Shown: positions 1-52,456 of the stretch, in pieces
Layout of the letters: each line of letters opens with the position of its first letter
Numbering within the stretch: position 1 is the stretch's first letter
From: Candidatus Daviesbacteria bacterium
GTDB taxonomy: Bacteria > Patescibacteriota > Microgenomatia > Daviesbacterales > UBA10151
DNA length: 58,904 bases
NCBI GenBank assembly: GCA_016183225.1
Contig: JACPEZ010000047.1
Span: 1 to 58,904 of the forward strand
Reading direction: 5' to 3'
Program-made: the position numbers and the translations under genes
Notes under the pieces: model-generated
What the model was told of the DNA's origin: nothing
The model's database searches: none
The model's input: the letters and a program-made list of their open reading frames with translations, nothing else

Positions 1-45
1 AGGGAAAGGGAAGCTACTCCTTTGGAGGCAAAAGGTTAGGGATAT

Positions 46-1110
46 ATGATCATTCTGGGGATTGAAACTACCTGTGATGAAACAGGAGCTGCCATTCTTC
101 AAATGAAAAATGGCCGAATAACTATTTTATCCAATGTGGTGGCATCAAGCGCGCCCCTGCAAGCTAAATATGGTGGAGTTATTCCCGAGCAGGCAGCCAG
201 AGAACAGATCCGCAGCATCATACCGGTCATTGATGCTGCAATTTCAAATTTCAAATTTCAAATTTCAAATTTAAACGCAATTGCGGTCAGTCAGGGCCCG
301 GGACTAATTGGATCGCTTTTGGTGGGAGTGGAAACAGCCAAGACTTTAAGTTTAATCTGGAAAAAACCCTTAATTCCCGTAAATCATTTAATCGGCCATT
401 TTTATGCAAACTGGATAGAAAGAGAGTCAAGTGTCAAGAGTCAGGAGTCAAGTGAAAAAAAATCTAGACTCTCGACTCTAGCGACTAGCCACTTACCTCA
501 ATTCCCCTGTCTTGGATTATTGGTTTCCGGAGGCCATACTGATTTGGTGCTTTTTACGAATCATGGAAAATATAAATATCTGGGAGGGACAAGGGATGAT
601 GCGGCTGGTGAGTGCTTTGACAAATGCGCCAGACTTTTGGGGTTGCCCTATCCGGGAGGCCCGGAAATCAGCAAACTAGCAGAAAAAGGCAAAGATATAT
701 ATAAATTACCCAGACCAATGATAAATGACGGCTGGGATTTTTCTTTTTCGGGACTTAAAACTGCCGTCGCATCCACCTTCAAGGAGTCAAAGCCCACCTT
801 GAAGGTGGAATGCAATCTGGCTGCCAGTATCGAAGCGGCGATTGTTGATGTTTTAGTAATAAAGACTATTAGGGCAGCTCAAAAATATAAAGTTGAACAA
901 ATTATTGTTGCCGGCGGCGTAGCGGCGAACGAGAAACTCGTTCGCAAGTTAAAAGTTCAAAGTGAAAAGTTAAAAGTTAAATTACACAATCCACCGCCAA
1001 ATCTTTGCACGGACAATGCTGCCATGATAGCGGCTGCGGCATTCTTTCAAAAACCAATAGCTGATCCGCTCAAACTCCAAGCCGATCCCAATCTGTCCCT
1101 GGCCTCTTGA
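46..1110 (+). CDS. tsaD: tRNA N6-adenosine threonylcarbamoyltransferase TsaD (Kae1/Gcp family)
   Basis: ILGIETTCDET N-terminus, GPGL, LVSGGHT and DDAAGE.FDK motifs at TsaD-like spacing. Carries an extra ~22-aa low-complexity loop (ESSVKSQESSEKKSRLSTLATS) encoded by a repeat element. Confidence 0.9.
   Translation: MIILGIETTCDETGAAILQMKNGRITILSNVVASSAPLQAKYGGVIPEQAAREQIRSIIPVIDAAISNFKFQISNLNAIAVSQGPGLIGSLLVGVETAKTLSLIWKKPLIPVNHLIGHFYANWIERESSVKSQESSEKKSRLSTLATSHLPQFPCLGLLVSGGHTDLVLFTNHGKYKYLGGTRDDAAGECFDKCARLLGLPYPGGPEISKLAEKGKDIYKLPRPMINDGWDFSFSGLKTAVASTFKESKPTLKVECNLAASIEAAIVDVLVIKTIRAAQKYKVEQIIVAGGVAANEKLVRKLKVQSEKLKVKLHNPPPNLCTDNAAMIAAAAFFQKPIADPLKLQADPNLSLAS
241..275. repeat. Heptamer tandem repeat (atttcaa x4 plus atttaaa) inside tsaD
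   Basis: Four perfect 7-nt units and one imperfect unit read directly. Translates as ISNFKFQISNLN in the tsaD frame. Confidence 0.9.
424..490. repeat. Bipartite heptamer element (gagtcaa-type x4, A8 spacer, tctagac-type x4) inside tsaD
   Basis: Units gagtcaa/gtgtcaa/gagtcag/gagtcaa, then gtg + aaaaaaaa, then tctagac/tctcgac/tctagcg/actagcc. A sibling element in opposite orientation lies at 43906-43972. Confidence 0.85.
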
Positions 1111-8889: not shown

Positions 8890-9297
8890 TTAATAGATCC
8901 TGTCCAGGGCCTCATTGGCCAGCTTATCGGCCTTGAAATTTCGGGAGCGGGGAATGTGCCTGTAAAAAACCTCTCCTGTTTCCATTTCCAGTATTTTAAT
9001 TTGCTCAAAAAGAATTTTGAGATTTGGATTTTTGATTTTAAACCTTCCGGAAAGCTGTTCTACTACGAGTCTTGAGTCTGCAAAAAACTCAATCTCAAGC
9101 CTTTGGGGAAACTTTTTTTTTAGATACTTAAATACTTCCAAAACTGCTGTATATTCGGCCACATTATTAGTAGCCACTCCGATGTATCTGCCTTCTTCAT
9201 AAATCAGGTTTCCCTTTTCATCGGAAACAGTAAAACCGTAGCTTGCAGGACCGGGATTGCCGCGGGAAGCCCCATCTGTATAAATTATTAGTTTCAT
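8890..9297 (-). CDS. rnhA: Ribonuclease HI
   Basis: IYTDGASRGNPGPASYGF, NNVAEY, and a C-terminal ADKLAN with RNase H-like acidic residues. Confidence 0.85.
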   Translation of the reverse strand: MKLIIYTDGASRGNPGPASYGFTVSDEKGNLIYEEGRYIGVATNNVAEYTAVLEVFKYLKKKFPQRLEIEFFADSRLVVEQLSGRFKIKNPNLKILFEQIKILEMETGEVFYRHIPRSRNFKADKLANEALDRIY

Positions 9298-10496
9298 CTC
9301 TTTAAGAGTATGCCCACCTGCATTATTAAAATCAAGTATTCGGAAATTACCGTAATCCAGGAAGCAGCGATATAGCCATATTGAGGAATAAATACCAGGT
9401 TAGCCGCAATGTTTACTGTTAGCCCTAAAGCATAAACGATTAACAATTTTTTGTACATTTTTTTAGCTACCATCACCCACATCAGCAGCGCGGACAAAAA
9501 GTAGGCAGGGAAGCCAAAAGACAAAATGCGGAGCGACTCCACAGATCCGGCAAAACCCGATCCGGTAATTAATTTAATAATTACAGGGGATAAGTAATAA
9601 GTGATAAGTAATATGAATAGAGACAAAAATAACAGGCCCAGAGGGGCCAGTTTGGAAGTTTTGCGCGCTTTAAGCATCATCGGGTAATAAGAGTTCATCA
9701 AAAAAGCAGGCAGCACCAAAACGGCCTGAAAAACCGAATAAGCCACATTGTAAATTCCAACTTCAGCCAAGCCTTTAAAAAAAGAGAGAATAAAAGCATC
9801 GGCCCTAAAATAGATGATATTTAAAAATAGGGTTGCTGCCAGAGGAAGACTGCCTTGAAATAAAGCAACCAGATATTTTTTGCTAAAAATGGGGGAGAGT
9901 TGTTTAATAATTCTTCTGACCAGGAGTAACAGCAGGCCGGTATAAATAAGCCACGATAAAACATAACCAACAGTCAATAAATACACAGGCGCGCGAACGC
10001 TTGACAAATAAAAAATCAATAACACCCCTGCCGGAGCAGACAGAAAAACAGGCCAGCTAGAATATTCGTATTTCAGATTAACTTGAATTAACGCTTGAGC
10101 GGTGAAAAACAGGCTGTTTAAAAAAATAGATAATGCGCCAACCAAAACAGCCAGTTTAAAATCAACCAGCCCGGGTGTAAAAATTAGCGGCAAGGCAGCT
10201 GCCAGAATTGTTAAAAATATTCCCCATAAAATCCTCACCCCCAGCAGTTTTCCCCATTCATTCCGTAACCTGTAACCTGTAACCTGTAACCTTCTTAAAA
10301 TATATCCGTTAAAACCAAAATCCGCTAAAACATAAAAAAAGGCCAGGTAAGTAAGGGCCAGAGTAAAATTTCCCACTCCGCCTTCACCATAAACGCGGGA
10401 AACTATTCCCAAAATAATAAACCCGCTGGAAGTGGTAACCGCTTTAAAAACCAGCTGCCATCCGGTCTGCTGGGTAATTTTAATAATTTTTTGCAC
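9294..10496 (-). CDS. Polysaccharide flippase-like membrane protein (Wzx/MOP-like)
   Basis: About 12 TM segments, envelope-gene neighbourhood, 4-nt overlap with rnhA. Confidence 0.55.
   Translation of the reverse strand: MQKIIKITQQTGWQLVFKAVTTSSGFIILGIVSRVYGEGGVGNFTLALTYLAFFYVLADFGFNGYILRRLQVTGYRLRNEWGKLLGVRILWGIFLTILAAALPLIFTPGLVDFKLAVLVGALSIFLNSLFFTAQALIQVNLKYEYSSWPVFLSAPAGVLLIFYLSSVRAPVYLLTVGYVLSWLIYTGLLLLLVRRIIKQLSPIFSKKYLVALFQGSLPLAATLFLNIIYFRADAFILSFFKGLAEVGIYNVAYSVFQAVLVLPAFLMNSYYPMMLKARKTSKLAPLGLLFLSLFILLITYYLSPVIIKLITGSGFAGSVESLRILSFGFPAYFLSALLMWVMVAKKMYKKLLIVYALGLTVNIAANLVFIPQYGYIAASWITVISEYLILIMQVGILLKR
10265..10292. repeat. Heptamer tandem repeat (gtaacct x4) inside the flippase gene
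   Basis: Four perfect 7-nt units read directly. Encodes RLQVTGYRLR on the minus strand. Confidence 0.9.
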
Positions 10497-11628: not shown

Positions 11629-12130
11629 TTGATCCCTCGACTTCGCCCGCCTCTGGCGTGGCTTCGCTCGGGACAGGCTTTTGAGTTTTGAGTTTAATTA
11701 TTATGTGCCGGTCTCTGCCTTCTCCAACACTCTCGCTTTCCACCCCTTTAGTTTCCTGAACCACCATATGAACTATTCTTCTCTGCCAGGGGCTCATTGG
11801 TTCCAGTTCCAGCTCTTTCCCGCTGTCCAAAACCTGTTTTACCCAGGCTTTGGCGCTAGCGCTTAACTCTTCTTCTTTCTGCTTTCTCCATCCTCCCACA
11901 TCCAGAATGACTCTTTTATAGTCGCCTTCTGCCATCTTTCTGGAAACCATTTGATTGACAATAAGTTGCAACCCGTCCAAAGACTGGCCTCCCGAGCCGA
12001 TTAAACGGCCGGCATCTTTGGTTTCAATTAAAACATGGAGGCCGTTTTCATCCTCCTCAATTTCATAAGAACCCTCCAGGAGTAACAGCCCCAAAATGTT
12101 ATCTAAAACTTCGCTTAACTTTTCTTCCAT
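11606..12130 (-). CDS. jag: Jag-like KH/R3H RNA-binding protein
   Basis: KH GxxG (LIGSGGQSLD) and an R3H-like segment (PWQRRIVHMVV). Conserved position downstream of yidC. Confidence 0.75.
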   Translation of the reverse strand: MEEKLSEVLDNILGLLLLEGSYEIEEDENGLHVLIETKDAGRLIGSGGQSLDGLQLIVNQMVSRKMAEGDYKRVILDVGGWRKQKEEELSASAKAWVKQVLDSGKELELEPMSPWQRRIVHMVVQETKGVESESVGEGRDRHIIIKLKTQKPVPSEATPEAGEVEGSNVKTGKD

Positions 12131-13112: not shown

Positions 13113-13431
13113 GCTTTAGAGCTTGTTCCAAATCGAAAAGCACATCATTGGATTTTACACCAAGAATGGCCTGTTTGGGAAGAGCCACTATATTAACAGT
13201 AGCTGGTAGTTGGTAGTATATATTATGGAAAGCTTCAGCAGCTAATCTTTTTGCCCTATTTCTCTCTGTGGACTTCTTAAAAACCTTTGAAGAAACTGCT
13301 ATGCCTATTTTGGGCTGAAAATTTTCACCAAGCTTAATAAAAAGTTTTAAGTATTTTGTTTCCAGTTTCGACCCCGCAGCTACCCGTTTAAAATCCTTTT
13401 TTAAATTTAATCTTTTTTCCCGGGAAAGCAT
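13093..13431 (-). CDS. rnpA: Ribonuclease P protein component
   Basis: Small basic protein (SREKRL, KKSTERNRAKR) immediately downstream of rpmH. Confidence 0.8.
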   Translation of the reverse strand: MLSREKRLNLKKDFKRVAAGSKLETKYLKLFIKLGENFQPKIGIAVSSKVFKKSTERNRAKRLAAEAFHNIYYQLPATVNIVALPKQAILGVKSNDVLFDLEQALKHEKIIN

Positions 13432-21350: not shown

Positions 21351-21484
21351 AATTAAATTCGAAATTCTAATATCGAAATACGAAACAAATTCTAAATTCA
21401 AATATTAAATGTTTTAAAAATTTGAATTTGTTAAATTTGGTATAGTCTCGAATTTCGGATTTCGTGCTTCGAATTTTTCATATA
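21351..21484. repeat. Palindromic heptamer-periodic 'cgaaat/ttcgaa' element between the two VirB4 parts
   Basis: aaattcaaa (21404-21412) is complementary to tttgaattt (21421-29). Right arm is cgaattt/cggattt/cgtgctt/cgaattt. Shares aattcgaagcacgaaatccgaaat with 41204-41303 in opposite orientation. Confidence 0.8.
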
Positions 21485-23210: not shown

Positions 23211-23264
23211 TTGATAGGGTAGTGAATAGCGTATAGAGAATAGGGTATAGTTGAATCGCAGCAC

Positions 23265-23282
23265 AACTATACGCTAAACGCT
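23265..23282. repeat. 18-bp direct repeat aactatacgctaaacgct (copy 1, overlaps the stop of the four-helix-bundle gene)
   Basis: Identical to 23667-23684. Embedded in heptamer-periodic tatacgc/taaacgc sequence. Confidence 0.85.
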
Positions 23283-23663
23283 ATTAACTAAACGCTTTAT
23301 AACTCCTCCTTTCTCTCTGTATACCATGACGTATAACATCTTGATGACTTCTACTAGTAATTCCTCCGATTTTCTAAAGCTCCCGGCTGGTGCCAACTTG
23401 AGCTCTTTAGAAATAATAAGTTGAGTATCTAATTCTAAAGCAGATCCATATGCTATTGAATAAAATTGTAAGTACTCTTTATGTGATCTTCTGGCGTATC
23501 CTTCAGCTATATTAGAAGGAATAGAGATAGCTGCTCTATGGATTTGAGAAATTATCACAAACTGTTCGTTTTTAGGGAATAAAACCGTTAATTTATAGAT
23601 CTCTTTTACAAGAGCGATCGATTTCTGCCAAACTATTAATTCTTTGTATGAATGTATCTGCAT
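23274..23663 (-). CDS. Four-helix-bundle protein (23S rRNA intervening-sequence protein / Avd family)
   Basis: YKELIVWQKS...FPKNEQF.IISQIHRAAISIPSNIAEGYARRS.KEYLQFYSIAYGSALELDTQL is the characteristic motif set of this family. Confidence 0.85.
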   Translation of the reverse strand: MQIHSYKELIVWQKSIALVKEIYKLTVLFPKNEQFVIISQIHRAAISIPSNIAEGYARRSHKEYLQFYSIAYGSALELDTQLIISKELKLAPAGSFRKSEELLVEVIKMLYVMVYREKGGVIKRLVNSV

Positions 23664-23666
23664 ATT

Positions 23667-23684
23667 AACTATACGCTAAACGCT
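23667..23684. repeat. 18-bp direct repeat aactatacgctaaacgct (copy 2, 3 nt upstream of the four-helix-bundle ATG)
   Basis: Identical to 23265-23282. A 12-bp inverted pair agcgtatagaga (23228-23239) / tctctatacgct (23687-23698) brackets both copies. Confidence 0.85.
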
Positions 23685-23770
23685 TCTCTCTATACGCTTT
23701 GTTATACATCGTGAAAATACTATAGTCTAGGGGTACAAAATAGGTCAAAAAATATACAATATACAGTATA

Positions 23771-33642: not shown

Positions 33643-34034
33643 GGTGTTTGAATGATGACCGGCCCTGTTGTGCCAAACAGTCTTGAGAGCAGAAATTGAA
33701 AAACCAGGAAGGCAAACATTAAAATTAAAAATCCGATAATGGCATGAGAGATCATTTGTCTGGCTCCTGCCATTTCCTCTTTATCCCCTCCTGCTTTCAA
33801 ATATCTGAATGCTCCAAACAGAAAATATAATATCACTAATGCGGCGGTAATGGCAAAGGCCGGAGGGACCAGTTTGGATGTGGCCTCGCCCAAAGTTTTG
33901 ATATCCCCAAAGCCAAATTTTTCTCCAATGGGAATGGGGGATTGGGCATGAACGGGAAAAGTAAAAAGTAAAAAGTAAAAAGTAAAAAGTATTAAAACTG
34001 TACCCTGTACCCTGTACCCTGTACCCTTTTTCAA
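33639..34034 (-). CDS. VirB2/TrbC-like T4SS pilin paralog 4
   Basis: GAFRYLKAGGDKEEMAGARQMISHAIIGFLILMFAF. Proposed TTG start at 34034 makes a TTGA overlap with the paralog 5 stop. The track ATG at 34130 would overlap the neighbour by ~100 nt. Confidence 0.6.
   Translation of the reverse strand: MKKGTGYRVQGTVLILFTFYFLLFTFPVHAQSPIPIGEKFGFGDIKTLGEATSKLVPPAFAITAALVILYFLFGAFRYLKAGGDKEEMAGARQMISHAIIGFLILMFAFLVFQFLLSRLFGTTGPVIIQTP
33961..34025. repeat. Two adjacent 4 x 7-nt heptamer arrays (gtaaaaa x4; ctgtacc x4)
   Basis: gtaaaaa at 33961-33988, a 9-nt spacer, ctgtacc at 33998-34025. On the minus strand they encode GTGYRVQGTVLILFTFYFLLFTF, the signal-peptide region of pilin 4. Confidence 0.9.
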
Positions 34035-34379: not shown

Positions 34380-34736
34380 TCAAGTGGATTTTAACAAACC
34401 GCTTAAAACTCGAGCTGTTTCCATGTGTATTTCTAATATTTTCGCATAATCATCTTTACCAGTAAACTGTCTCTCATAAGCAAAATCAATAAAGAATTCT
34501 AATTCTGTTAAAGACCCCATTGCCATTTGGTAGAAATGCTTTCTATCCTTTAAGCCTCTTCTGCTATATCCTTCTGCAATATTAGCACAAACCGATAAAG
34601 CAGCCCGGCGCATTTGTGAAATCATTCCAAAAAGCTCATCTTTAGGGAATTTTGCTGTGATATCGTAAATTAAATGTGCCAACAAATTAGCTTTCTGCCA
34701 AGCAATGAGTTTTCTGTAGCCGCTATTGTTTCTCAT
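34380..34736 (-). CDS. Four-helix-bundle protein (23S rRNA intervening-sequence protein / Avd family), second copy
   Basis: YRKLIAWQKA...FPKDELFGMISQMRRAALSVCANIAEGYSRRG.KDRKHFYQMAMGSLTELEFF. The ATG at 34736 makes an ATGA overlap with the upstream gene stop. Confidence 0.85.
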   Translation of the reverse strand: MRNNSGYRKLIAWQKANLLAHLIYDITAKFPKDELFGMISQMRRAALSVCANIAEGYSRRGLKDRKHFYQMAMGSLTELEFFIDFAYERQFTGKDDYAKILEIHMETARVLSGLLKST

Positions 34737-35812
34737 ACTTGGGCCGAAGTTAATCTTTCTCTGCCTGCCTGCAAAGTTTCCGGATTGCCTGCAGAAGTTA
34801 ACATCTGAAATGCCCCCAAAAGCATCATCAAAAATGCCAAACCCCCTCCAATGCCCAGGCCAAATTTTAATACATCCTGCACCAAATCCGCAGGATTGGT
34901 ATGTATACACCCAATGGCTGTTTTTATGGCCGGTTTTGCCGGGTCACATTCTAAACCTTTTCCAGAGGTACAAATTCCCAATGCGGCATCCTGCGTAGTG
35001 CAACCCTTTTTAAGGGTACCTGTATCGAGTACTCTGCCAGGTTTATCCGGTGTGCCTACAGTAAACTCCAAGGGGCAAAGGGGTTGTCCAAAACCTCCAA
35101 AGGGTCCAATATTGAGCCGGCGAATATCAATTTTGTGACGCCCCACTGTTTTCCAGGAAGTAGGTATTGCTATGGGACTAAAGTCTGGAGTATCCAAGTA
35201 AAGCAAAAGCTTTGGATCAAAGGAATCGTATGGTGTTGTTATGACACCGTCAAAAAACAATCTAAATTGCGACGTGATGGTGCTGGTTAAATTTTTCCCG
35301 GAAATCGTTAGGTTGGTGGCAGATGTAATTCCTTCTGTAGGTTTAAGCTCCAACTTACAAAGATTGTCGTTATCAACCACATCATAATAAGCCAGGCATT
35401 GGGGTACAGCCTGATTGTTGATAAGTGCGTGTAACACAATCTGTTTATTTTTTCCTTCGGAAAACTGACAGGGAGTAGTGCCGGGAATAAAGATTGACCG
35501 GTCAAGATCGTAAAAGATTTCATCTTCATTGAGCTTGGAGGCTGTGAATGTATAATCATTGACTCGCTGACCGGGGGCGAATGGCAGATCCCGGCAGTTA
35601 AATTCCATCCTGTAGATAGTACTGGCATTGCCTTGGCCCACATTGATAATAAACCTGGCTTTGCGCGTTTCATCTGTTAGAGGTTTACCGTCTGCCGGCT
35701 CTATCTTTACTGGACAGCTTGCTTGGGGGGCGGCTGATATTGAAGAAACACTGATAAGAAAAAATACAAAGAAGAATAATAACAGAAGCAGGATTTTAAT
35801 TATTTTCCCCAT
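34733..35812 (-). CDS. Secreted large-ectodomain protein ending in a half T4SS-pilin module (adhesin-pilin fusion)
   Basis: Signal peptide MGKIIKILLLLLFFFVFFLISVSSISA|AP, a ~290-aa Cys-containing ectodomain, then GGGLAFLMMLLGAFQMLTSAGNPETLQAGRERLTSA. That is pilin TM1 plus loop, but the ORF stops before a second TM. Confidence 0.6.
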   Translation of the reverse strand: MGKIIKILLLLLFFFVFFLISVSSISAAPQASCPVKIEPADGKPLTDETRKARFIINVGQGNASTIYRMEFNCRDLPFAPGQRVNDYTFTASKLNEDEIFYDLDRSIFIPGTTPCQFSEGKNKQIVLHALINNQAVPQCLAYYDVVDNDNLCKLELKPTEGITSATNLTISGKNLTSTITSQFRLFFDGVITTPYDSFDPKLLLYLDTPDFSPIAIPTSWKTVGRHKIDIRRLNIGPFGGFGQPLCPLEFTVGTPDKPGRVLDTGTLKKGCTTQDAALGICTSGKGLECDPAKPAIKTAIGCIHTNPADLVQDVLKFGLGIGGGLAFLMMLLGAFQMLTSAGNPETLQAGRERLTSAQV

Positions 35813-39472: not shown

Positions 39473-41203
39473 ATGAAGAATATGTTTAAAAGTAAGTTTA
39501 TCCTGGCATTTGCGATCTTTTTTTTCTTGCTACTTGCTACTTACTACTTACTACCAACAGTCCGGGCCGATGAAATTGAGGATTTGCAAAGGCAGATTGA
39601 TGAGCTGAATAAGGCCCGGGAGCTGTCTGTTAAAGCTACCACCCCCCTGGAAGGGCAACTGTCCTCTTTACAAAGGCAGCTTGCCCAGATTCAATCAAGC
39701 ATTAACGCTCTTTCCGCAAATATAAAAACAAAACAGCAGGAGCTGGATTTAAGGGAGGAAAAACTGGCTTTGCAGCAGGCTCTTTTAGATAAACGGGTCC
39801 GCTCCTATTACATCCGCTCGTACCTCGCAGACCCTTTACTGGTTATCCTGTCCTCTTTTCAGTCGGGCGATCTTTTCCGGGAGCTGTCTTTCCGCCAGTC
39901 TGTGGCCCGGGAAGACCGCCGGATCATTGCCAGCGTTACCGGGGAAATGCTGGATTTACTGACTCAAAAAGACAAGCTGGAAAAAGATAAAGTCAAGTTG
40001 GCTTCTTTTCAGGTAGAGGTTGACAAAAATGCCAAGTTTTTAGGGGGAGAAATAACAACAGCCAAAAAATATCAGGCCGAACTGTCCACCAAAATTGCCC
40101 GGTTATCTGCCCGCCAGCAGGCCATTATTGCTCAAAGACAAGCCTCTTTAAATTTACCCACTTCTTTGGGAGCCGGGCCGCTTTTTTGTACGGATGACCG
40201 AAAGCTTGATCCGGGTTTTTCCCCGGCTTTTGCCTTTTTTACCTATGGCATTCCCCACCGGGTGGGCATGAACCAGTATGGCGCCTACGGCCGGGCCAAC
40301 GCCGGAGCAAACCATGAGGATATTTTAAGAGCCTATTTTCAAGACTTTTCTTTCGAACAAAAAGGCAATATCAATATTTCGGTTCAGGGATACGGCTCAA
40401 TGCCTTTGGAAACTTATCTGTTGGGCATTTATGAAATGCCTGATTCCTTCCCCATGGAGGCTTTAAAAGCGCAGGTCATTGCCGCCCGCTCCTATGCCCT
40501 TTCGTACACCGGCAGCGGATCAAAAGAAATCTGCACCAGCCAGCAGTGCCAGGTTTACAAAGGCGGCAATAAAGGCGGCAACTGGGAGCAGGCAGTCAAA
40601 TCTACCGATGGCAAAACCATGATTTCCGGCGGCTCGCCGGTGACGGCCTGGTATTCTTCCACTGACGGAGGATATACTTTTTCTTCATCCGATGTGGGCT
40701 GGTCTGCCCGCTCTTTTACCAAAAGAGTGCGAGATACCAACGGAGATATCTCCAGCTTTGCCGATTTACAGGCCAAAGCCTATGACCGGGATTCCCCCTG
40801 TTTTTATGCTGCCCAGGGAGTAAGATCTCAATATGCCAAGAGCGCCTGGCTCAAATCAGAAGAGGTGGCTGATATTGCCAATGTCATTATGCTAATCAAA
40901 GCAGATTCCGGAGTGTCATCCCATCTTTATCAAACCGATAAACCCAACCCGGAAGGAGGAGAAACCTGGAATGAAGATCGAGTCAGACAGGAGCTTCGCT
41001 CAAGAGGCAGCAGTCCTTTTAACAGTGTTTCATCAGTTTCAGTGTCGGCGGATTTTTCCTCCGGGCAGATTACTTCAGTGACAGTGTCGGGTGACCGGGG
41101 TGCGGAAACTTTTAACGGCAGCGAGTTTAAAAATTTCTTTAATCTGCGTGCCCCGGCCAATATCCAGATTGTGGGACCATTATTTTCTGTAGAACAGAAA
41201 TAA
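39473..41203 (+). CDS. SpoIID/LytB-domain cell-wall protein with N-terminal coiled coil
   Basis: Signal peptide, long Q/L-rich coiled coil, then MNQYGAYGRA, AQVIAARSYAL, CTSQQCQVYKG and AWYSSTDGGYT, the SpoIID motif set. Confidence 0.8.
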   Translation: MKNMFKSKFILAFAIFFFLLLATYYLLPTVRADEIEDLQRQIDELNKARELSVKATTPLEGQLSSLQRQLAQIQSSINALSANIKTKQQELDLREEKLALQQALLDKRVRSYYIRSYLADPLLVILSSFQSGDLFRELSFRQSVAREDRRIIASVTGEMLDLLTQKDKLEKDKVKLASFQVEVDKNAKFLGGEITTAKKYQAELSTKIARLSARQQAIIAQRQASLNLPTSLGAGPLFCTDDRKLDPGFSPAFAFFTYGIPHRVGMNQYGAYGRANAGANHEDILRAYFQDFSFEQKGNINISVQGYGSMPLETYLLGIYEMPDSFPMEALKAQVIAARSYALSYTGSGSKEICTSQQCQVYKGGNKGGNWEQAVKSTDGKTMISGGSPVTAWYSSTDGGYTFSSSDVGWSARSFTKRVRDTNGDISSFADLQAKAYDRDSPCFYAAQGVRSQYAKSAWLKSEEVADIANVIMLIKADSGVSSHLYQTDKPNPEGGETWNEDRVRQELRSRGSSPFNSVSSVSVSADFSSGQITSVTVSGDRGAETFNGSEFKNFFNLRAPANIQIVGPLFSVEQK

Positions 41204-41303
41204 ATTCGAAGCACGAAATCCGAAATACTAAACAAATTCTAAATTTTGAAAATTCGAATTTCAAAAATTGTTTCGAATTTCGAAATTGGAATTTCGAATT
41301 TAG
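41204..41303. repeat. Heptamer-periodic 'cgaaat/ttcgaa' element (sibling of 21351-21484)
   Basis: ttcgaag/cacgaaa/tccgaaa/tactaaa/caaattc ... gaatttc/gaaattg/gaatttc. The 24-nt string aattcgaagcacgaaatccgaaat matches the reverse complement of 21443-21476. Confidence 0.8.
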
Positions 41304-41324
41304 AAAGAGTATACTCTTTTTGCT

Positions 41325-41900
41325 ATGTTTTCTGCTTATGTTGAAAATCCGCAAAATTGCCGTTTTGAGGGCCAGGATCCGGATGAAAAAATCCTGCTTT
41401 TGCTGCGCGCCCATCCCATTGTCAATTTAGCCTGGATCATCCCGGCCCTGCTGCTTTTTTTCCTGCCCTTTTTCCTGCCCAAAATTTTTTCGCTTTTAAA
41501 TTTAAATCTTTTGGCCCTTCCCCAAACCTTTAAAATAGTGTTTTTAATCATCAACTATTTGCTGATTTTAACCATTGCTTTTGAGGGTTTTTTGCACTGG
41601 TATTTTAATGTTTACATTGTCACCGATAAAAATGTGGTTGATGTTGATTTTCACTCCATTCTTTTTAAAAATATTGATGTGGCGCCTCTTCGCAACATTG
41701 AAGATACCTCCTCATCCATGGGCGGGATTTTAAGATCTATTTTTCACTACGGCGATGTATTGATCCAGACAGCCGGCACCTCCAGGAATATTGATCTGGA
41801 ATCTGTGCCCAGGCCCCATCATGTGGCTGATTTTATCTTGGATGAAGCGCACAAACTCTACGGGAGGGGAGATCGCCATGCCGACGGCCACCCCAGCTGA
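41325..41900 (+). CDS. Membrane protein with bacterial PH (YdbS/YdbT-like) domain
   Basis: Two N-terminal TM segments followed by YIVTDKNVVDVDF...GDVLIQTAG...LESVPRPHHV, a pattern seen in bPH_2 proteins. Confidence 0.45.
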   Translation: MFSAYVENPQNCRFEGQDPDEKILLLLRAHPIVNLAWIIPALLLFFLPFFLPKIFSLLNLNLLALPQTFKIVFLIINYLLILTIAFEGFLHWYFNVYIVTDKNVVDVDFHSILFKNIDVAPLRNIEDTSSSMGGILRSIFHYGDVLIQTAGTSRNIDLESVPRPHHVADFILDEAHKLYGRGDRHADGHPS

Positions 41901-42114: not shown

Positions 42115-43904
42115 GATTAAAAATAGCACAGGTAATCGGCTTAAATACGGACCAGCAGGCGGCCCAAGTAGTTTCACAGATACAGGATGCCGAGAATGCT
42201 TTTTTAGCTTTACTCCGGCTTAGTTGCGATGACGCTTTTACCAAAGGCAGACAGGCTCTGTCAGACCTGTCGGATTTTTACTTTGATTTTGAAGGCAGTC
42301 CGGCCCAGAAACTGACTGCCGCTTTTGCCGAAGGAGTCAAAAAATTTTCCGGCGAAGGTGAATACGACTTGTGTTTGGCTGCAGTATCGGGAAAAGTGCT
42401 GTATCTTACGGGACAGGGCCGGGTGGAAGTTTATTTAAAAAGAGAGGATAAGTTATCGCCGCTTTTGTCCACCGGTTCCGCCGGCGCTTTGATCTCGGGA
42501 TTTTTGGAAGAAGGGGACAAGTTAATGCTGGCAAGCAAAAGTTTGTCCGATTTGCTGGGTGAGGATTTGTCCAAATCAATGGATTTGCCTAAAGACGCAT
42601 GGGAAGAGGAAATGAGTTCCAAAGTGGCCCGGGCGGAGAGCGGGGAGGGAGGGCTGGCCGGGCTTTTTGCGCGGATAGATCAGCAGGATCAGGAAGATCA
42701 AAAGGAAGAAGAGTCTGTTATCAGCCTTCCCGGTCTACAGGAAAAAGAAATTATTCCTCCCCGGGCCAGGGCAATTCTGGCAAAACTTCTCGGATTTTTT
42801 CCCAAAAGCGGCCGGGGCAGATTGATTTTGGCTGTAGTTTTAATTATTATTATTGCTTTGGGAACAGGGTATCAGTATAAATTAGGTCGCGACAGGGAAA
42901 GGAATCTTCAATTCGATCAAGCCTTACAAGCTGCCAAAGATGATTTTAATGCTGCCAAAGGTTTAAGCAGCTTAAATCCGGCCGAGGCCAAGATTAAACT
43001 GGATACTGCCAAAGATAAAATTGGCCAAGCGCTGGTTCTAAAACCCAAAGACAGCGGCGCCCGGGATTTAAAAAACCAGATTGAACAGGAATCATCCTCT
43101 ATTTTGCAACAGGCGCAGGTAGCTGATTTTCCTTTGTTTTTGGATCTGGATCTGGTCAAAAAAGACTTTAAAGCTTATGCGTTAAGTTTTTCGGCCGGCA
43201 AAATACTGGTTTTGGATAGAACGCAATATTCCCTGGCTGCTATTGACGCTGCTAAAAAGAGCAATCAAATTCTGGCCGGGAAAAGTCAGCTGGGGGAAGC
43301 GCAACTATCTTCATTGAATGGCAATCTGGCTTTTAGCTACTCTGCTGACAAAGGATTGGTGCGTACCGATTTAACCAATCAAAAACAAACCCAGGTGGCT
43401 AAAGTTGACGAGGAATGGGGGAATATTGCAGACATGAGCGGCTTTGCCGGCAATGTTTATCTTTTGGATTCAACCAAGAATCAAGTCTGGAAGTATTTGC
43501 CAACTTCCGAGGGCTATTCCGGTAAAAGAGATTATCTTACTCAAAACACCAAGGCGGATTTTACCGGCAGTTTGCGGATGCAGATTGAATCTTCAATTTA
43601 TGTGTTGAAACAGGGAGGGGAGATACTGCGATTTACCAGGGGGGAGAAGGATAATTTTTCCTATTCAGGTTTACCCTCACCGGTCAAAGACCCCAAAAGT
43701 TTCTTTGTTTCCTCCGATACTGATGATTTGTATTTGCTGGATTCTGGCAACGCCAGACTTTTGGTCTTGACTAAAACCGGAGCCTATAAAGCCCAGTATC
43801 AAAGCGAGCGCTTTAGAGAGTTTTCCGACCTGGTAGTGGATGAAAAAGCTAAAAAGGTCTATTTGCTGGAAGGCAGTAAAATCTATACAATGGATCTCAA
43901 ATAA
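42111..43904 (+). CDS. Hypothetical single-pass membrane protein (597 aa)
   Basis: Cytoplasmic N-domain, TM (LILAVVLIIIIALG), beta-rich C-terminal ectodomain. ATGA overlap with the upstream gene. Confidence 0.5.
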   Translation: MRLKIAQVIGLNTDQQAAQVVSQIQDAENAFLALLRLSCDDAFTKGRQALSDLSDFYFDFEGSPAQKLTAAFAEGVKKFSGEGEYDLCLAAVSGKVLYLTGQGRVEVYLKREDKLSPLLSTGSAGALISGFLEEGDKLMLASKSLSDLLGEDLSKSMDLPKDAWEEEMSSKVARAESGEGGLAGLFARIDQQDQEDQKEEESVISLPGLQEKEIIPPRARAILAKLLGFFPKSGRGRLILAVVLIIIIALGTGYQYKLGRDRERNLQFDQALQAAKDDFNAAKGLSSLNPAEAKIKLDTAKDKIGQALVLKPKDSGARDLKNQIEQESSSILQQAQVADFPLFLDLDLVKKDFKAYALSFSAGKILVLDRTQYSLAAIDAAKKSNQILAGKSQLGEAQLSSLNGNLAFSYSADKGLVRTDLTNQKQTQVAKVDEEWGNIADMSGFAGNVYLLDSTKNQVWKYLPTSEGYSGKRDYLTQNTKADFTGSLRMQIESSIYVLKQGGEILRFTRGEKDNFSYSGLPSPVKDPKSFFVSSDTDDLYLLDSGNARLLVLTKTGAYKAQYQSERFREFSDLVVDEKAKKVYLLEGSKIYTMDLK

Positions 43905-43905
43905 G

Positions 43906-43972
43906 AGTCTAGTCGCTAGAGTCTAGAATCTAGTAAAATTAACCTTGACTCTTGACTCTTGACTCTAGTCAC
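43906..43972. repeat. Bipartite heptamer element (ctag-type x4, AT spacer, ttgactc x3-4), sibling of 424-490 in reverse orientation
   Basis: agtctag/tcgctag/agtctag/aatctag, then taaaattaacc, then ttgactc x3 + tagtcac. Exactly fills the gap between the upstream stop (43904) and the smpB ATG (43974). Confidence 0.85.
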
Positions 43973-50200: not shown

Positions 50201-50332
50201 GGCAAATATTGGCCAGAACATAAGACAGATACTTTTTCTGGCCTAAGAAAGCCCGCTGAGGTTTTTCTTGCTTTAAGCCTCTCTCTGCTGTAATATCTGG
50301 TGCAACTGCCCTCTAAATTACTATTAACGAGA

Positions 50333-52456
50333 ATGGATATTCAACTTTTTATGTCTATTTTTAAGGGGCGTCATGACGTTTATGCTAAACGGTGGGAAAA
50401 AGATGGTAAAAACGGCTACAGTCCTGCATATAGGGTGGATTGGAGTAAGTTTGCAGCTTTTAAAGCCAGGGGCGGTAAGTTTTCAGATTATCCCCACAAA
50501 ACCCCATTACCTCTAACATTAGAAATTATTCAAAGTCATTTAGAAGGTAAGGAGATAGTAGGGATTTATCCTTTATTATCAGACAATACCTCCTACTTTA
50601 TAGCAGCTGACTTTGATGGTGAGAATTGGCCGGAGGAAATAAGGGCATTTTCTAAAGTCTGTGCCAGATACAGTATTCCAACCTATTTAGAAAGATCCAG
50701 ATCTGGTAATGGTGGTCATGTCTGGATTTTCTTTGAAGACAAATACCCTGCATATAAATCAAGAAAAATTATTTTAGAAATAATCAGAGAAGCACTTGAG
50801 CTTTCAGTTTTTGACCGAGAAGTTAGTTTTGATAGATTATTTCCAAACCAAGATTATCACACAAATAAGGGATTTGGGAATCTAATTGCCTTACCACTAC
50901 AGGGAGACTCATTAAAAAATAGTAATTCTGGTTTTCTTGATCCTGAAACGCTGGAAATTTTACCTGATCAGTGGAACTTTATTAAAAATATTGAACCTGT
51001 TTCTCTGGATATACTTGATAAACTTTATCTCGAGTTAGTAGAGGAACTGGCAAAAATAAGCAACACTCAGAAAGCAACTAAAGGCACATTAAATGTCATT
51101 ATCCAAAACCAGATTTACCTAAATAAAAGTCAGCTAACTCTTGTAATGGTAAAATTCCTGAGAGAAAATTTAAACTTTTCAAATCAGGAGTACTTTGTTA
51201 AACAAAAAATTGGCATTAGTACCTATAAAACCGAAAAGTATTTCAGGCTGATTGAGGAAACTAATGATTCTGTAACTATTCCCAGAGGCTTTTTAAATCA
51301 ACTTATTGAATTTTGTGAAGAGAATAAGATCCCCTTTGAAATTATTGATAAGCGGGAAAAATTAGCTGATGTTAAGTTTAAATCAAAGATTTCACTTAGA
51401 GATTATCAGAATATAGCTGTTACTGAGGCTATGAATAAGGATTACGGAGTAATTGTTGCTCCATCAGGATCGGGAAAGACTGTTATTGGACTGGAATTGA
51501 TAGCCAGAAGATTACAACCAGCACTGATTCTGGTTCACCGAAAGCAGCTATTAGATCAGTGGGTGGAGAGAATAGAGTCTTTTTTAGGAATCCCTAAAAA
51601 GGATATTGGTCAAATTTCAGGAAATAAAAAGAAACCCGGAGATCAAATTACTGTGGCTATGGTTCAAAGTCTACTAAAAATGAATAACCTTGATGATATA
51701 AGTAAGAGTTTTGGCACTATTCTCCTCGATGAATGCCATCATGTACCGGCCAGAACTTTTAGAGAACTAATTTCAAACCTGAACTCTTATTACCTTTATG
51801 GTTTAACAGCAGCTCCCCAAAGAAAATATAACGATGAGAAGCTAATTTATTACTATCTCGGTGATGAAATTGTAACCATAGATCCAGATCAACAAAAAGG
51901 TTCTTTAACTGATAAAATTACAGTCCATATTCGTAGCACTGTTTTATCTGTACCATTTGATTATAAAACTGATGTATTTGAAGTCATTTCAAAAATACTT
52001 ATTTTTGATAGTGCCAGAAATTTATTGATCTGCCAGGATGTTTTACAGGAAGTTCTAAAGGGAAGGAAAATTCTTATCCTGACAGAGCGTAAAGAGCACG
52101 TTGAAGTATTAAATCTTTATTTAAAATCCCACGCTGAAATTATTACTTTAACTGGTGAGGATTCACAAAGAAAGCGTAGGCTTAAAATTGAACAAATTAA
52201 ATCAGGTAATTTTCAGATTCTTATAACAACTGGCCAACTGTTTGGTGAAGGCATGGATTTTTCTGCCTTCAACTGTTTATTTTTAACCTATCCATTTTCG
52301 TTTGAGGGAAAACTGATTCAGTATATTGGAAGAATCCAGAGGTCTAAGAGCAAACAGATAATTTATGATTACAGGGATCAGAATGTGGCTTTTCTGGAAC
52401 GTTTGTTCCAAAAAAGGTTAAAATATTATCAGAAGCGTGGCTGGGTAGAAAAATAG
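50333..52456 (+). CDS. Archaeo-eukaryotic primase (PrimPol)-like domain fused to an SF2 (ResIII/DEAD-like) helicase
   Basis: N-terminus: FKGRHDVYAKRWE, IAADFDGENW, SRSGNGGHVWIFF, FGNLIALPLQG (AEP motifs I-III-like). C-terminus: Walker A APSGSGKT, LLDECHH, and motif VI-like GRIQR. Confidence 0.75.
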   Translation: MDIQLFMSIFKGRHDVYAKRWEKDGKNGYSPAYRVDWSKFAAFKARGGKFSDYPHKTPLPLTLEIIQSHLEGKEIVGIYPLLSDNTSYFIAADFDGENWPEEIRAFSKVCARYSIPTYLERSRSGNGGHVWIFFEDKYPAYKSRKIILEIIREALELSVFDREVSFDRLFPNQDYHTNKGFGNLIALPLQGDSLKNSNSGFLDPETLEILPDQWNFIKNIEPVSLDILDKLYLELVEELAKISNTQKATKGTLNVIIQNQIYLNKSQLTLVMVKFLRENLNFSNQEYFVKQKIGISTYKTEKYFRLIEETNDSVTIPRGFLNQLIEFCEENKIPFEIIDKREKLADVKFKSKISLRDYQNIAVTEAMNKDYGVIVAPSGSGKTVIGLELIARRLQPALILVHRKQLLDQWVERIESFLGIPKKDIGQISGNKKKPGDQITVAMVQSLLKMNNLDDISKSFGTILLDECHHVPARTFRELISNLNSYYLYGLTAAPQRKYNDEKLIYYYLGDEIVTIDPDQQKGSLTDKITVHIRSTVLSVPFDYKTDVFEVISKILIFDSARNLLICQDVLQEVLKGRKILILTERKEHVEVLNLYLKSHAEIITLTGEDSQRKRRLKIEQIKSGNFQILITTGQLFGEGMDFSAFNCLFLTYPFSFEGKLIQYIGRIQRSKSKQIIYDYRDQNVAFLERLFQKRLKYYQKRGWVEK

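What the first reader, a model, noticed from the sequence alone, without database searches (positions are those of the whole stretch)
241..275. STRR-like heptanucleotide tandem repeats of many different sequences, usually exactly four units, also inside ORF bodies
Heptamer arrays occur inside several ORFs. They include atttcaa x4(+1) in tsaD (241-275), gtaacct x4 in the flippase (10265-10292), and agtagct/ggtagtt/ggtagta in rnpA (13198-13218). Others are tatacgc/taaacgc-type units around the four-helix-bundle gene (23221-23302, 23667-23710) and tttgagt x2 (11680-11693). Together with the cgaaat, gagtcaa/ctagac, gtaaaaa, ctgtacc and cttgcta arrays, the window holds at least ten distinct heptamer families with a preferred block size of 28 nt. 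The only comparable thing I know of is the heptameric STRR repeats of heterocystous cyanobacteria. Seven is not a multiple of three, so tolerating these arrays in coding regions is notable. A common generating or binding mechanism (a sequence-independent 7-nt ruler) is implied.
Basis: partly seen in the sequence, partly recalled or inferred. Interest (0 to 1): 0.6.

Follow-up and report, generated by a model that had tools for sequence, protein, structure and literature searches.

The report
Translated seven-base repeat tracts in CPR genes
This tiny-genome (CPR, Daviesbacteria-type) bacterium holds about a hundred short tracts of 22-39 bases built from a repeating 7-base unit, mostly read through as protein inside ordinary and essential genes; the repeat class is long known, but here the tracts overwrite coding sequence without changing its length, which whole-unit copying slips do not explain.

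Summary
The 785-kb genome has 36 perfect period-7 arrays of at least 3 copies; a shuffled genome has none, and periods 5, 6 and 8-15 give 0-2. About three quarters lie in frame inside ORFs, including tsaD and rnpA. "Exactly four units / 28 nt" is only roughly right. Tracts are 21-39 nt, end abruptly, and their lengths are uniform modulo 7.

Against an array-poor relative (G007), 18 of 50 tracts change no protein length. At the same tsaD sites, different genera carry different units, changed in concert. Variants that break would-be stop codons are retained. Whole-unit slippage predicts none of this; a length-conserving copy process at a 7-nt offset, filtered by translation, fits better.

A minority are inverted pairs. 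These are in-frame hairpin insertions and the stems that flank PF05635 (Avd-like four-helix-bundle) genes. PF05635 copy number tracks array density in relatives (rho about 0.5). The three relatives with full-length MutS show no arrays.

The kind is known: prokaryotic heptamer SSRs (the Mrazek 2007 survey) and cyanobacterial STRR. This scan has already noted translated heptamer arrays and the PF05635 link on other DNA. New here are length neutrality, non-integer tracts and stop-breaking variants.

The parts
240..274 (+). ATTTCAA x4.7 perfect tract inside tsaD (site 1, residues about 66-76). It is length-neutral against array-free orthologues.
   Evidence: The model places it in a confident region, at the end of helix 48-68 and the following turn.
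421..490 (+). Inverted pair AGAGTCA x4.3 (423-452) and GACTCTA x2.7 (463-481): an in-frame hairpin insertion in tsaD (site 2).
   Evidence: Absent from same-genus G001 and G002 and from G007. Residues 128-148 have pLDDT <50.
946..981 (+). AAGTTAA x5.1 imperfect tract in tsaD (site 4). The third unit, AAGTGAA, breaks an in-frame TAA.
   Evidence: This site is the hot spot for 7-residue periodic peptides in 120 public TsaD homologues.
9590..9613 (-). ATAAGTA x3.4 tract in the polysaccharide-flippase-type ORF 9294-10496.
   Evidence: Net length 0 against G007.
10265..10292 (-). GTAACCT x4.0 perfect tract in the same flippase-type ORF.
   Evidence: Net +1 aa against G007.
13199..13217 (-). Weak 2.7-copy period-7 stretch in rnpA, near chance level.
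   Evidence: score 31; PF00825; background.
21355..21476 (.). Degenerate inverted pair AAATTCG x7.6 and TCGAATT x4.1 at a gene junction.
23219..23300 (.). Left stem region of the PF05635 cassette: an ATAGCGT-type tract, a loop, and a CTATACG/CTAAACG-type tract.
23274..23663 (-). PF05635 (23S_rRNA_IVP, bAvd-like four-helix-bundle) gene bracketed by heptamer tracts.
   Evidence: E 9e-37. Its PDB relatives 2GSC and 2RLD are each listed with 5 chains in one entry.
23667..23710 (.). Right stem region of the PF05635 cassette (CTATACG/CTAAACG units). It includes a direct copy of AACTATACGCTAAACGCT, also seen at about 23265.
33957..34027 (-). Two adjacent perfect tracts, AAAAGTA x5.0 and CTGTACC x4.3, encoding the N-terminal hydrophobic segment of a T4SS-pilin-like ORF.
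34380..34910 (-). Second PF05635 gene of the window. No clear inverted arms were found.
39526..39554 (+). CTTGCTA/CTTACTA x4.1 tract in the N-terminal membrane segment of a SpoIID-domain ORF.
   Evidence: Net +1 aa against G007.
41271..41305 (.). TTTCGAA x5.0 tract (82%) with a self-complementary unit. It lies outside my greedy ORF set, although it overlaps a short listed ORF, 41139-41414 (-).
43904..43966 (.). Inverted pair AGAGTCT x4.3 and CTTGACT x3.3 at the junction upstream of smpB.

Best explanation
The arrays are short tracts (21-39 nt) in which the DNA is made and kept 7-periodic. The process copies sequence from a position 7 nt away without adding or removing bases: a conversion or realignment in a 7-nt register within the tract. 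It acts on any sequence, in genes and between them. Selection then removes tracts that put a stop codon or a harmful peptide into a protein. The survivors in this 92%-coding genome are therefore mostly in-frame tracts in surface helices, loops and N-terminal membrane segments.

The process is active in some lineages (G000, G008, G013, G019, G021). It is weak or lost in others (G007, where orthologous tracts are decaying). It occurs in genomes in which MutS was not found.

A minority of tracts are inverted pairs. These form hairpins that behave as small insertions inside genes and as the stems bracketing PF05635 genes.

Shown: the period-7 excess, translation, shared sites with concerted unit change, length neutrality, non-integer tract ends, stop-breaking variants and the PF05635 arms. 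Inferred: that the cause is a mutational copy process rather than a selected function. Unknown: the enzyme, and why the register is 7.
For: (1) There is a sharp excess at lag 7 only: 36 perfect arrays versus 0-2 at neighbouring lags and 0 when shuffled. The same holds in 2.7 Mb from 30 relatives.

(2) Perfect tracts end abruptly. The match to the periodic continuation beyond the first mismatch is 0.33 (left) and 0.27 (right), against about 0.29 at random. Lengths are uniform modulo 7 (chi-square versus uniform p = 0.98), which is incompatible with 7n plus a chance extension. Relatives show the same.

(3) Length neutrality. Of 50 G000 arrays spanned by an alignment to the G007 orthologue, 18 have net length 0 and 17 more are within 4 aa. 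tsaD sites 1 and 4 have the same length in array-free G012, G024 and G025. Only 7 of 35 have a lag-7 signal in G007 (1.3% in control segments), so many neutral tracts face a non-periodic orthologue.

(4) Concerted change at one site. At tsaD site 1 the units are ATTTCAA (G000), ATTGAAA (G002), CTTAACG (G001), ATTAAAG (G016), ATTAACG (G003) and ATTAATN (G007), with the same tract borders.

(5) Translation and selection. 66 of 86 arrays are in ORFs. 14 of these would carry an in-frame stop if perfectly homogenised. 23 of 72 deviations from the unit consensus fall in those would-be stop codons, against 12% expected (p = 5e-6).

(6) In 120 public TsaD homologues there are 32 runs of >=4 identical residues at lag 7 aa and none at lags 3-6 or 8. 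They cluster at the same four sites.

(7) Full-length MutS was found only in G012, G023 and G024, all with 0 arrays in the samples.
Against: No enzyme or pathway is identified, and no known repair or replication step is documented to copy at a 7-nt offset while conserving length.

Length neutrality could instead arise from a unit gain followed by a compensating deletion, with selection for protein length. In essential genes the frameshifted intermediate should be lethal, but a gain of 3 units followed by a 21-nt loss is possible.

Some neutral cases reflect arrays inherited from a common ancestor.

37% of dispersed arrays use exactly the units of this genome's own PF05635 cassette arms. A purely local process does not predict this. 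However, relatives' dispersed arrays share units with G000 arrays at a similar rate (25 of 69 against 8.6 expected).

Many genomes in which MutS was not found have no arrays.

ORFs were called by a greedy longest-ORF rule, not by a gene finder.

No population data could be obtained.
Confidence: 0.5

Rival explanations
1. The tracts depend on PF05635. They are the arms, remnants or target sites of the Avd-like four-helix-bundle cassettes. The protein, probably a pentamer, binds about five 7-nt units and in some way writes or maintains them.
For: In G000, 8-9 of the 11 PF05635 hits are bracketed by inverted heptamer tracts, each locus with its own unit. In 29 loci from relatives, 18 have significant inverted arms, and in 17 of those lag 7 beats lags 5, 6, 8 and 9. 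Arms are mostly 16-37 nt, overlapping the 21-39 nt of dispersed tracts. No perfect tract exceeds 5.6 units. PDB relatives 2GSC and 2RLD are each listed with 5 chains. PF05635 count correlates with array density (Spearman 0.49-0.62 over 27 genomes). The three genomes without PF05635 show no arrays. 31 of 84 dispersed arrays use exactly an arm unit of the same genome, against 4.7 expected. Per arm unit, the match rate is 1.28 for own arms and 0.13 for relatives' arms.
Against: Most arrays are solitary. Only 17 of 86 have an inverted partner within 600 nt, against about 8 in controls. Many are length-neutral, not insertions. G003, G023 and G029 have 4-5 PF05635 hits but no arrays in 80 kb each. 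The correlation is partly built in, because each cassette carries two arrays. Relatives are not independent. No binding or activity is known for PF05635, which PMC11270868 calls functionally uncharacterised. No reverse transcriptase is present for a DGR-like route.
Confidence: 0.22
2. This is classical replication slippage. Whole 7-nt units are gained and lost because about 7 nt contact the polymerase (the Mrazek 2007 proposal), and selection keeps only frame-preserving outcomes.
For: A heptamer excess among long SSRs is reported for many prokaryotes, together with this proposal (PMC4679880 and PMC4692102). MutS was not found in G000 or in most relatives. The hairpin-family tracts are true insertions.
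Against: Tract lengths are uniform modulo 7 with abrupt ends, whereas whole-unit gains predict 7n plus 0-2 nt. A third of tracts are exactly length-neutral. Single-unit steps would frameshift essential genes. There is no tail of long arrays (maximum 39 nt), whereas the published Xanthomonas and Nostoc arrays reach 14 and 26 units.
Confidence: 0.15
3. Periodicity is itself selected. It could act at protein level (7-residue heptads from three units) or at RNA or DNA level (regulatory or structural sites, or phase-variable switches).
For: Tracts persist at the same gene sites across genera. Many encode amphipathic-looking heptads in helices. Some lie at gene junctions as hairpins.
Against: Protein-level selection would give 21-nt periodicity, not 7-nt identity at synonymous positions. 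Units differ freely between lineages at one site. Tracts are spread evenly along proteins, including tsaD and rnpA, which is not the pattern of contingency loci. Orthologous tracts decay in G007 without gene loss. A near-identical second tsaD fragment lacks the site-1 tract altogether.
Confidence: 0.08
4. The arrays are an assembly or sequencing artefact.
For: Arrays are mildly enriched within 1 kb of contig ends (21 of 86 against 14% expected).
Against: Tracts are no longer than 39 nt, which is likely shorter than a sequencing read. They keep long ORFs open. They recur at orthologous sites in independent assemblies and in public proteins.
Confidence: 0.01

Closest known systems
Heptanucleotide 'long simple sequence repeats' of prokaryotes (the Mrazek 2007 survey, as summarised in PMC4679880 and PMC4692102)
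   Same: Tandem 7-nt units are over-represented relative to neighbouring periods. A sequence-independent 7-nt register was proposed.
   Different: As relayed in those papers, repeat units that are multiples of three are the ones most often found in coding regions, and the Xanthomonas and Nostoc heptamer excess is in intergenic regions. Here three quarters are translated, tracts are capped at 39 nt, are not integer multiples of the unit, and are often length-neutral.
Cyanobacterial STRR sequences; Xanthomonas GGGAATC and Nostoc GGGGA(C/T)T arrays (Rehm et al. 2015, PMC4692102)
   Same: 7-nt tandem units, frequent convergent inverted pairs (70-75 pairs in Xanthomonas), and conserved positions with variable length and sequence between relatives.
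   Different: One or a few G-rich units per genome, up to 14-26 copies. Here there are 47 AT-rich units, at most 5.6 copies, and most are inside ORFs.
TAACTGA direct repeats of Beggiatoaceae, cyanobacteria and Bacteroidetes (MacGregor 2015, PMC4679880)
   Same: Heptamer tandem sets of two to six copies (longer in some genomes). Some lie within ORFs and are read as a 7-residue repeat.
   Different: A single unit, mostly just upstream of start codons, proposed as a regulator-binding site.
ORF-bearing intervening sequences of 23S rRNA that encode PF05635
   Same: A PF05635 gene enclosed by inverted arms that can form a long stem.
   Different: Here the cassettes lie between protein genes, not in rRNA. 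The arms are 7-periodic with a different unit at each locus. Gene-less versions sit in frame in proteins.
Rickettsia palindromic elements (in-frame selfish palindromes in protein genes; from my own knowledge)
   Same: Palindromic insertions tolerated in frame in housekeeping proteins, at surface sites.
   Different: RPEs are one homologous family of about 100-150 nt without 7-nt periodicity. Here the hairpins are 50-70 nt and are only a minority of the tracts.

Membership tests
Prokaryotic heptanucleotide long SSRs (class described by the Mrazek 2007 survey) | Tandem direct repeats with a 7-nt unit, significantly over-represented against chance and against other periods | tested here: met
   36 perfect arrays of >=3 copies, against 0 when shuffled and 0-2 at periods 5, 6 and 8-15.
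Prokaryotic heptanucleotide long SSRs (class described by the Mrazek 2007 survey) | Dispersed through the genome | tested here: met
   128 TRF arrays spread over most of the 56 contigs.
Prokaryotic heptanucleotide long SSRs (class described by the Mrazek 2007 survey) | Arise and vary by gain or loss of whole units (slippage) | tested here: not met
   Lengths are uniform modulo 7 with abrupt ends. 18 of 50 are length-neutral.
Cyanobacterial STRR | A few fixed heptamer units shared among heterocystous cyanobacteria | tested here: not met
   47 canonical units among 86 arrays. Earlier scan notes place the organism in the CPR Daviesbacteria/Microgenomates.
Cyanobacterial STRR | Predominantly non-coding location | tested here: not met
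   66 of 86 arrays are inside ORFs; 53 of 70 by the TRF set.
PF05635 IVS-type cassette | ORF of family PF05635 | tested here: met
   Window 23274-23663 (E 9e-37) and 34380-34910 (E 8e-31). 11 hits in the genome.
PF05635 IVS-type cassette | ORF enclosed by inverted repeats able to form a stem | tested here: met
   8-9 of 11 loci in G000. 18 of 29 loci in relatives at z >= 4.
PF05635 IVS-type cassette | Inserted in a 23S rRNA helix and excised from the rRNA by RNase III | tested here: not met
   The window copies lie between or beside protein-coding ORFs. Cleavage cannot be tested with these tools.
Diversity-generating retroelement | Reverse transcriptase next to an Avd-like gene, with a template/variable repeat pair | tested here: not met
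   No RVT_1 match in G000, which is 85% complete, nor in G001, G002 or G013.
Phase-variable contingency SSR | Repeat placed so that unit changes switch a surface or restriction gene on and off; copy number varies between strains | tested here: inconclusive
   Tracts are spread evenly along proteins and occur in tsaD and rnpA, which argues against this. Strain variation could not be measured.
In-frame selfish palindromic elements (RPE-like) | Palindromic insertion, in frame, absent from orthologues | tested here: met
   Met only for the hairpin subset. The AGAGTCA/GACTCTA and ACCGACT+CGGAAGA pairs add 10-16 aa relative to G007. The tsaD copy is absent in G001 and G002.

The most novel reading that the evidence does not exclude
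The Avd-like PF05635 pentamer is the '7-nt ruler'. Each subunit holds one 7-nt unit of single-stranded nucleic acid. The complex promotes copying between neighbouring units, without a reverse transcriptase. It thereby writes and refreshes tracts of at most about 5 units, both in its own cassette arms and at other sites in the genome. This would explain bacterial heptamer repeats in general, including those of Xanthomonas, Nostoc and Bacteroidales.
Probability: 0.15. Interest if true: 0.85.

Novelty: new variant of a known kind. Interest (0 to 1): 0.6.

Why it matters
Heptamer repeats have been an unexplained oddity of bacterial genomes since 1990 (STRR), and a 2007 survey reported them as over-represented. 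This genome offers a clean, compact case in which the process can be read from coding sequence. The tracts overwrite about 30 nt without changing length, their units change in concert at fixed sites over genus-level divergence, and selection visibly holds stop-breaking variants against homogenisation. These constraints rule out the textbook whole-unit slippage picture for most tracts. They turn 'why seven?' into testable questions about a length-conserving 7-nt-offset copy step, absence of mismatch repair and the uncharacterised PF05635 family. Practically, such tracts create lineage-specific peptide segments in otherwise conserved CPR proteins. They probably break metagenome assemblies and blur alignments.

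Tried and rejected
(1) AEP-TOTE primase-polymerase (window 50300-52456) as the agent. The family occurs only in G000 among 31 genomes, while other array-rich relatives lack it. Rejected.

(2) A DGR-like retro-homing route through the Avd-like genes. No reverse transcriptase was found in G000 or in several array-bearing relatives. Rejected.

(3) All arrays as halves of hairpins. Only 17 of 86 have an inverted partner within 600 nt, against about 8 in controls. Rejected as a general rule.

(4) Protein-level heptad selection. It cannot give 7-nt identity, and intergenic arrays exist. Rejected.

(5) An integer 'four-unit' block. Rejected by the modulo-7 analysis.

The protein search found no TsaD closer than 74% identity, so no strain series could be built.

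(7) The genome-contig scan with TsaD returned only distant, non-CPR relatives and gave no taxonomy. The organism name rests on earlier scan notes.

(8) Whole-genome array densities for all relatives. Densities rest on 50-100 kb for most of the genomes used in the correlation; G006, G012, G022 and G025 had under 40 kb and were left out.

(9) Mismatch-repair loss as a sufficient cause. Many genomes without a MutS match have no arrays.
Full report
**1. The observation**

The cited arrays are present. ATTTCAA x4.7 lies at 240-272 in tsaD and GTAACCT x4.0 at 10265-10292. The pair AGAGTCA / GACTCTA lies at 423-481. Further arrays are at 946-981, 21355-21476, 33957-34027, 39526-39554, 41271-41305 and 43904-43966. 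Of the 53 TRF rows in the window, 22 have period 7. Two cited items are near chance level: 11680-11693 with 2.4 copies and 13198-13218 with 2.7 copies.

The window is contig 1 of a 785-kb, 56-contig, 41% GC genome. Earlier notes of this scan place it in the CPR Daviesbacteria/Microgenomates.

Genome-wide, perfect tandems of at least 3 copies number 36 at period 7. A dinucleotide-based shuffle gives 0, and periods 5, 6 and 8-15 give 0-2. Perfect lag-7 runs of >=14 nt number 36, against 0-2 at every other lag from 4 to 13. TRF lists 128 non-redundant period-7 arrays spread over most contigs.

**2. Distribution in relatives**

In 2.7 Mb sampled from 30 relatives there are 22 perfect period-7 arrays of at least 3 copies, and none at periods 8-11. 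Density is patchy. G008, G013, G019 and G021 match G000 at about 9-10 arrays per 100 kb. The complete 820-kb genome G007 has 1.1 per 100 kb. Several genomes have none in 80 kb.

**3. The tracts are translated and under selection**

By a greedy ORF call that covers 92% of the genome, 66 of 86 arrays lie wholly inside ORFs; by the TRF set it is 53 of 70. They are spread evenly along the proteins. Each unit is read in all three frames, giving 7-residue periodic peptides. These peptides are rich in S, K, N, Y and Q.

Units carrying stops on both strands make up half of the arrays outside ORFs. That compares with 9% of in-ORF arrays and about 16-19% of random heptamers.

Fourteen in-ORF arrays would contain an in-frame stop if perfectly homogenised. 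In these, 23 of 72 deviations from the unit consensus fall in the would-be stop codons, against 12% expected (p = 5e-6). An example is AAGTGAA at 946-981, which replaces a TAA.

An AlphaFold model of TsaD has a mean pLDDT of 86.6. It places sites 1 and 4 in confident helix and turn regions, and the site-2 insertion in a disordered loop, residues 128-148.

**4. Same sites, different units**

Codon-level comparison of tsaD shows about 4-copy tracts at the same four sites in many genera, with the same borders but different units. At site 1 the units are:

- G000: ATTTCAA
- G002: ATTGAAA
- G001: CTTAACG
- G016: ATTAAAG
- G003: ATTAACG
- G007: ATTAATN

In G001, G003, G016 and G007 the second unit carries a C at its fourth position, giving TCA. 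The consensus unit at that position would read TAA in frame.

In 120 public TsaD homologues there are 32 runs of >=4 identical residues at lag 7 aa, and none at lags 3-6 or 8. They cluster at the same four sites. This is concerted evolution within a tract, with selection holding individual variants.

**5. Length neutrality and non-integer tracts**

Fifty G000 arrays are spanned by an alignment to the G007 orthologue. Of these, 18 have net length 0 and 17 more are within 4 aa. Only 7 of 35 show a lag-7 signal in G007, against 1.3% of control segments. So some tracts are ancient and decaying in G007, while many neutral tracts face a non-periodic orthologue. tsaD sites 1 and 4 have the same length in G012, G024 and G025, which show no periodicity there.

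Perfect tracts are 21-39 nt long. Beyond the first mismatch, the flanks match the periodic continuation at 0.33 and 0.27, against about 0.29 at random. Lengths are uniform modulo 7 (p = 0.98). Whole-unit duplication predicts 7n plus 0-2 nt. Relatives show the same pattern, with a maximum of 36 nt.

Taken together, most tracts look like about 30 nt overwritten in a 7-nt register, not like inserted units.

**6. A second class: hairpins and PF05635 cassettes**

The arrays that are large insertions relative to G007 (+10 to +16 aa) all belong to two families of inverted or quasi-inverted pairs: AGAGTCA/GACTCT and ACCGACT+CGGAAGA. One solitary AAAGTTC tract adds 7 aa. In the second family, regular A-A mismatches remove the TAG that a perfect complement would create (reading).

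Only 17 of 86 arrays have an inverted partner within 600 nt, against about 8 in controls.

The genome has 11 PF05635 hits. Of these, 8-9 are bracketed by inverted heptamer tracts, with a different unit at each locus. This includes the window copy at 23274-23663. In 29 loci from relatives, 18 have significant inverted arms, and in 17 of those lag 7 exceeds lags 5, 6, 8 and 9.

31 of 84 dispersed arrays use exactly a unit of this genome's cassette arms, against 4.7 expected. The rate per arm unit is ten times higher for own arms than for relatives' arms. Against this, relatives' dispersed arrays also share units with G000 arrays (25 of 69 against 8.6 expected), so some of the sharing is general.

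**7. Co-occurring families**

- PF05635 copy number correlates with sampled array density (Spearman 0.49-0.62 over 27 genomes). The relatives are not independent, and each cassette carries arrays itself.
- The three genomes without PF05635 show no arrays.
- Full-length MutS was found only in G012, G023 and G024, all without arrays. Many genomes in which MutS was not found also lack arrays.
- No reverse transcriptase was found in G000.
- The AEP-TOTE primase-polymerase is unique to G000.
- The PDB relatives of the window's PF05635 protein, 2GSC (Xanthomonas) and 2RLD, are each listed with five chains in one entry.
- PF05635 is described as functionally uncharacterised and Avd-like (PMC11270868 and PMC10053308).

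**8. Comparison with what is known**

A heptamer excess among prokaryotic long SSRs, and the idea that 7 nt is the stretch contacting the polymerase, go back to the Mrazek 2007 survey as relayed in PMC4679880 and PMC4692102. STRR, the Xanthomonas GGGAATC and Nostoc GGGGAYT arrays (with 70-75 convergent pairs in Xanthomonas), and the TAACTGA repeats are the nearest described cases.

I found no paper in the held library on such tracts in CPR bacteria, or on a link to PF05635.

This scan has already reported translated heptamer arrays in CPR genes, and the PF05635 bracket, on other DNA. I re-tested both here. What this analysis adds is length neutrality, tract lengths uniform modulo 7, stop-breaking variants, the contrast between G000 and G007, and the MutS lead.

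**9. Verdict and limits**

The best explanation is a length-conserving, 7-nt-register copy process filtered by translation, with a hairpin and PF05635-cassette subclass (confidence 0.5). The PF05635-driven reading is the main rival (0.22). Classical whole-unit slippage is disfavoured (0.15).

Limits:

- ORFs were called heuristically.
- The one close comparison available is a second tsaD fragment on contig 12, at about 88% nucleotide identity. It lacks the site-1 tract and is 18 nt shorter there.

Noticed in passing
G000 contig C12:2539-2875 versus window 1-337: Contig 12 ends in a second copy of the tsaD 5' region. Over the overlap with window 1-337, the first 60 nt (45 nt upstream plus 15 nt of tsaD) are 59/60 identical, and the coding part is about 88% identical. 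This copy lacks the site-1 heptamer tract and is 18 nt shorter there. It is probably a co-assembled close strain, and it may explain why both contigs end here.
   Followed up: partly
whole genome (contig ends): Heptamer arrays are mildly enriched within 1 kb of contig ends (21 of 86 against 14% expected, p about 0.009). This suggests that they, or variation in them, break the assembly.
   Followed up: partly
tsaD site 3: window about 760-800; L002, L010, L011: At tsaD site 3, G016, G001 and G010 carry an in-frame hairpin (CACC[T/C]NCGAGGTG ... CACCTCGNNGGTG) with compensatory changes between genomes. G000 has a related inverted repeat. G002, G017 and G004 have heptamer tracts at the same place.
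   Followed up: no
L266 (G003 tsaD site 2): G003 carries three perfect copies of a 24-nt (8-residue, YNKVSSSA) repeat in the tsaD loop where other genomes have heptamer hairpins.
   Followed up: no
L006 (G014 tsaD site 2); L254 (G026 PF05635 arms): Occasional period-8 tracts occupy the same roles as the heptamer tracts: tatcggaa x4 in the tsaD loop, and gttaacgg in the cassette arms.
   Followed up: no
window 34380-34910 (-): The second PF05635 gene has an N-terminal extension of about 60 residues (175 aa against 128) and no clear inverted arms. Two perfect tracts (33957-34027) lie in the neighbouring pilin-like ORF.
   Followed up: no
G007:C1 about 495589-495640 and G017 sample: The TAGCGTA/CTAAACG (CTATACG) unit family that flanks the window's PF05635 gene also occurs as a gene-less pair in G007 and as arrays in G017. 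This unit family is therefore shared across genera.
   Followed up: no
relatives G012, G023, G024: Full-length MutS (about 870-900 aa) was found in only 3 of the 31 genomes of this class sample. The rest, including G000, gave no MutS_V match, apart from a weak 589-aa hit in G008.
   Followed up: partly
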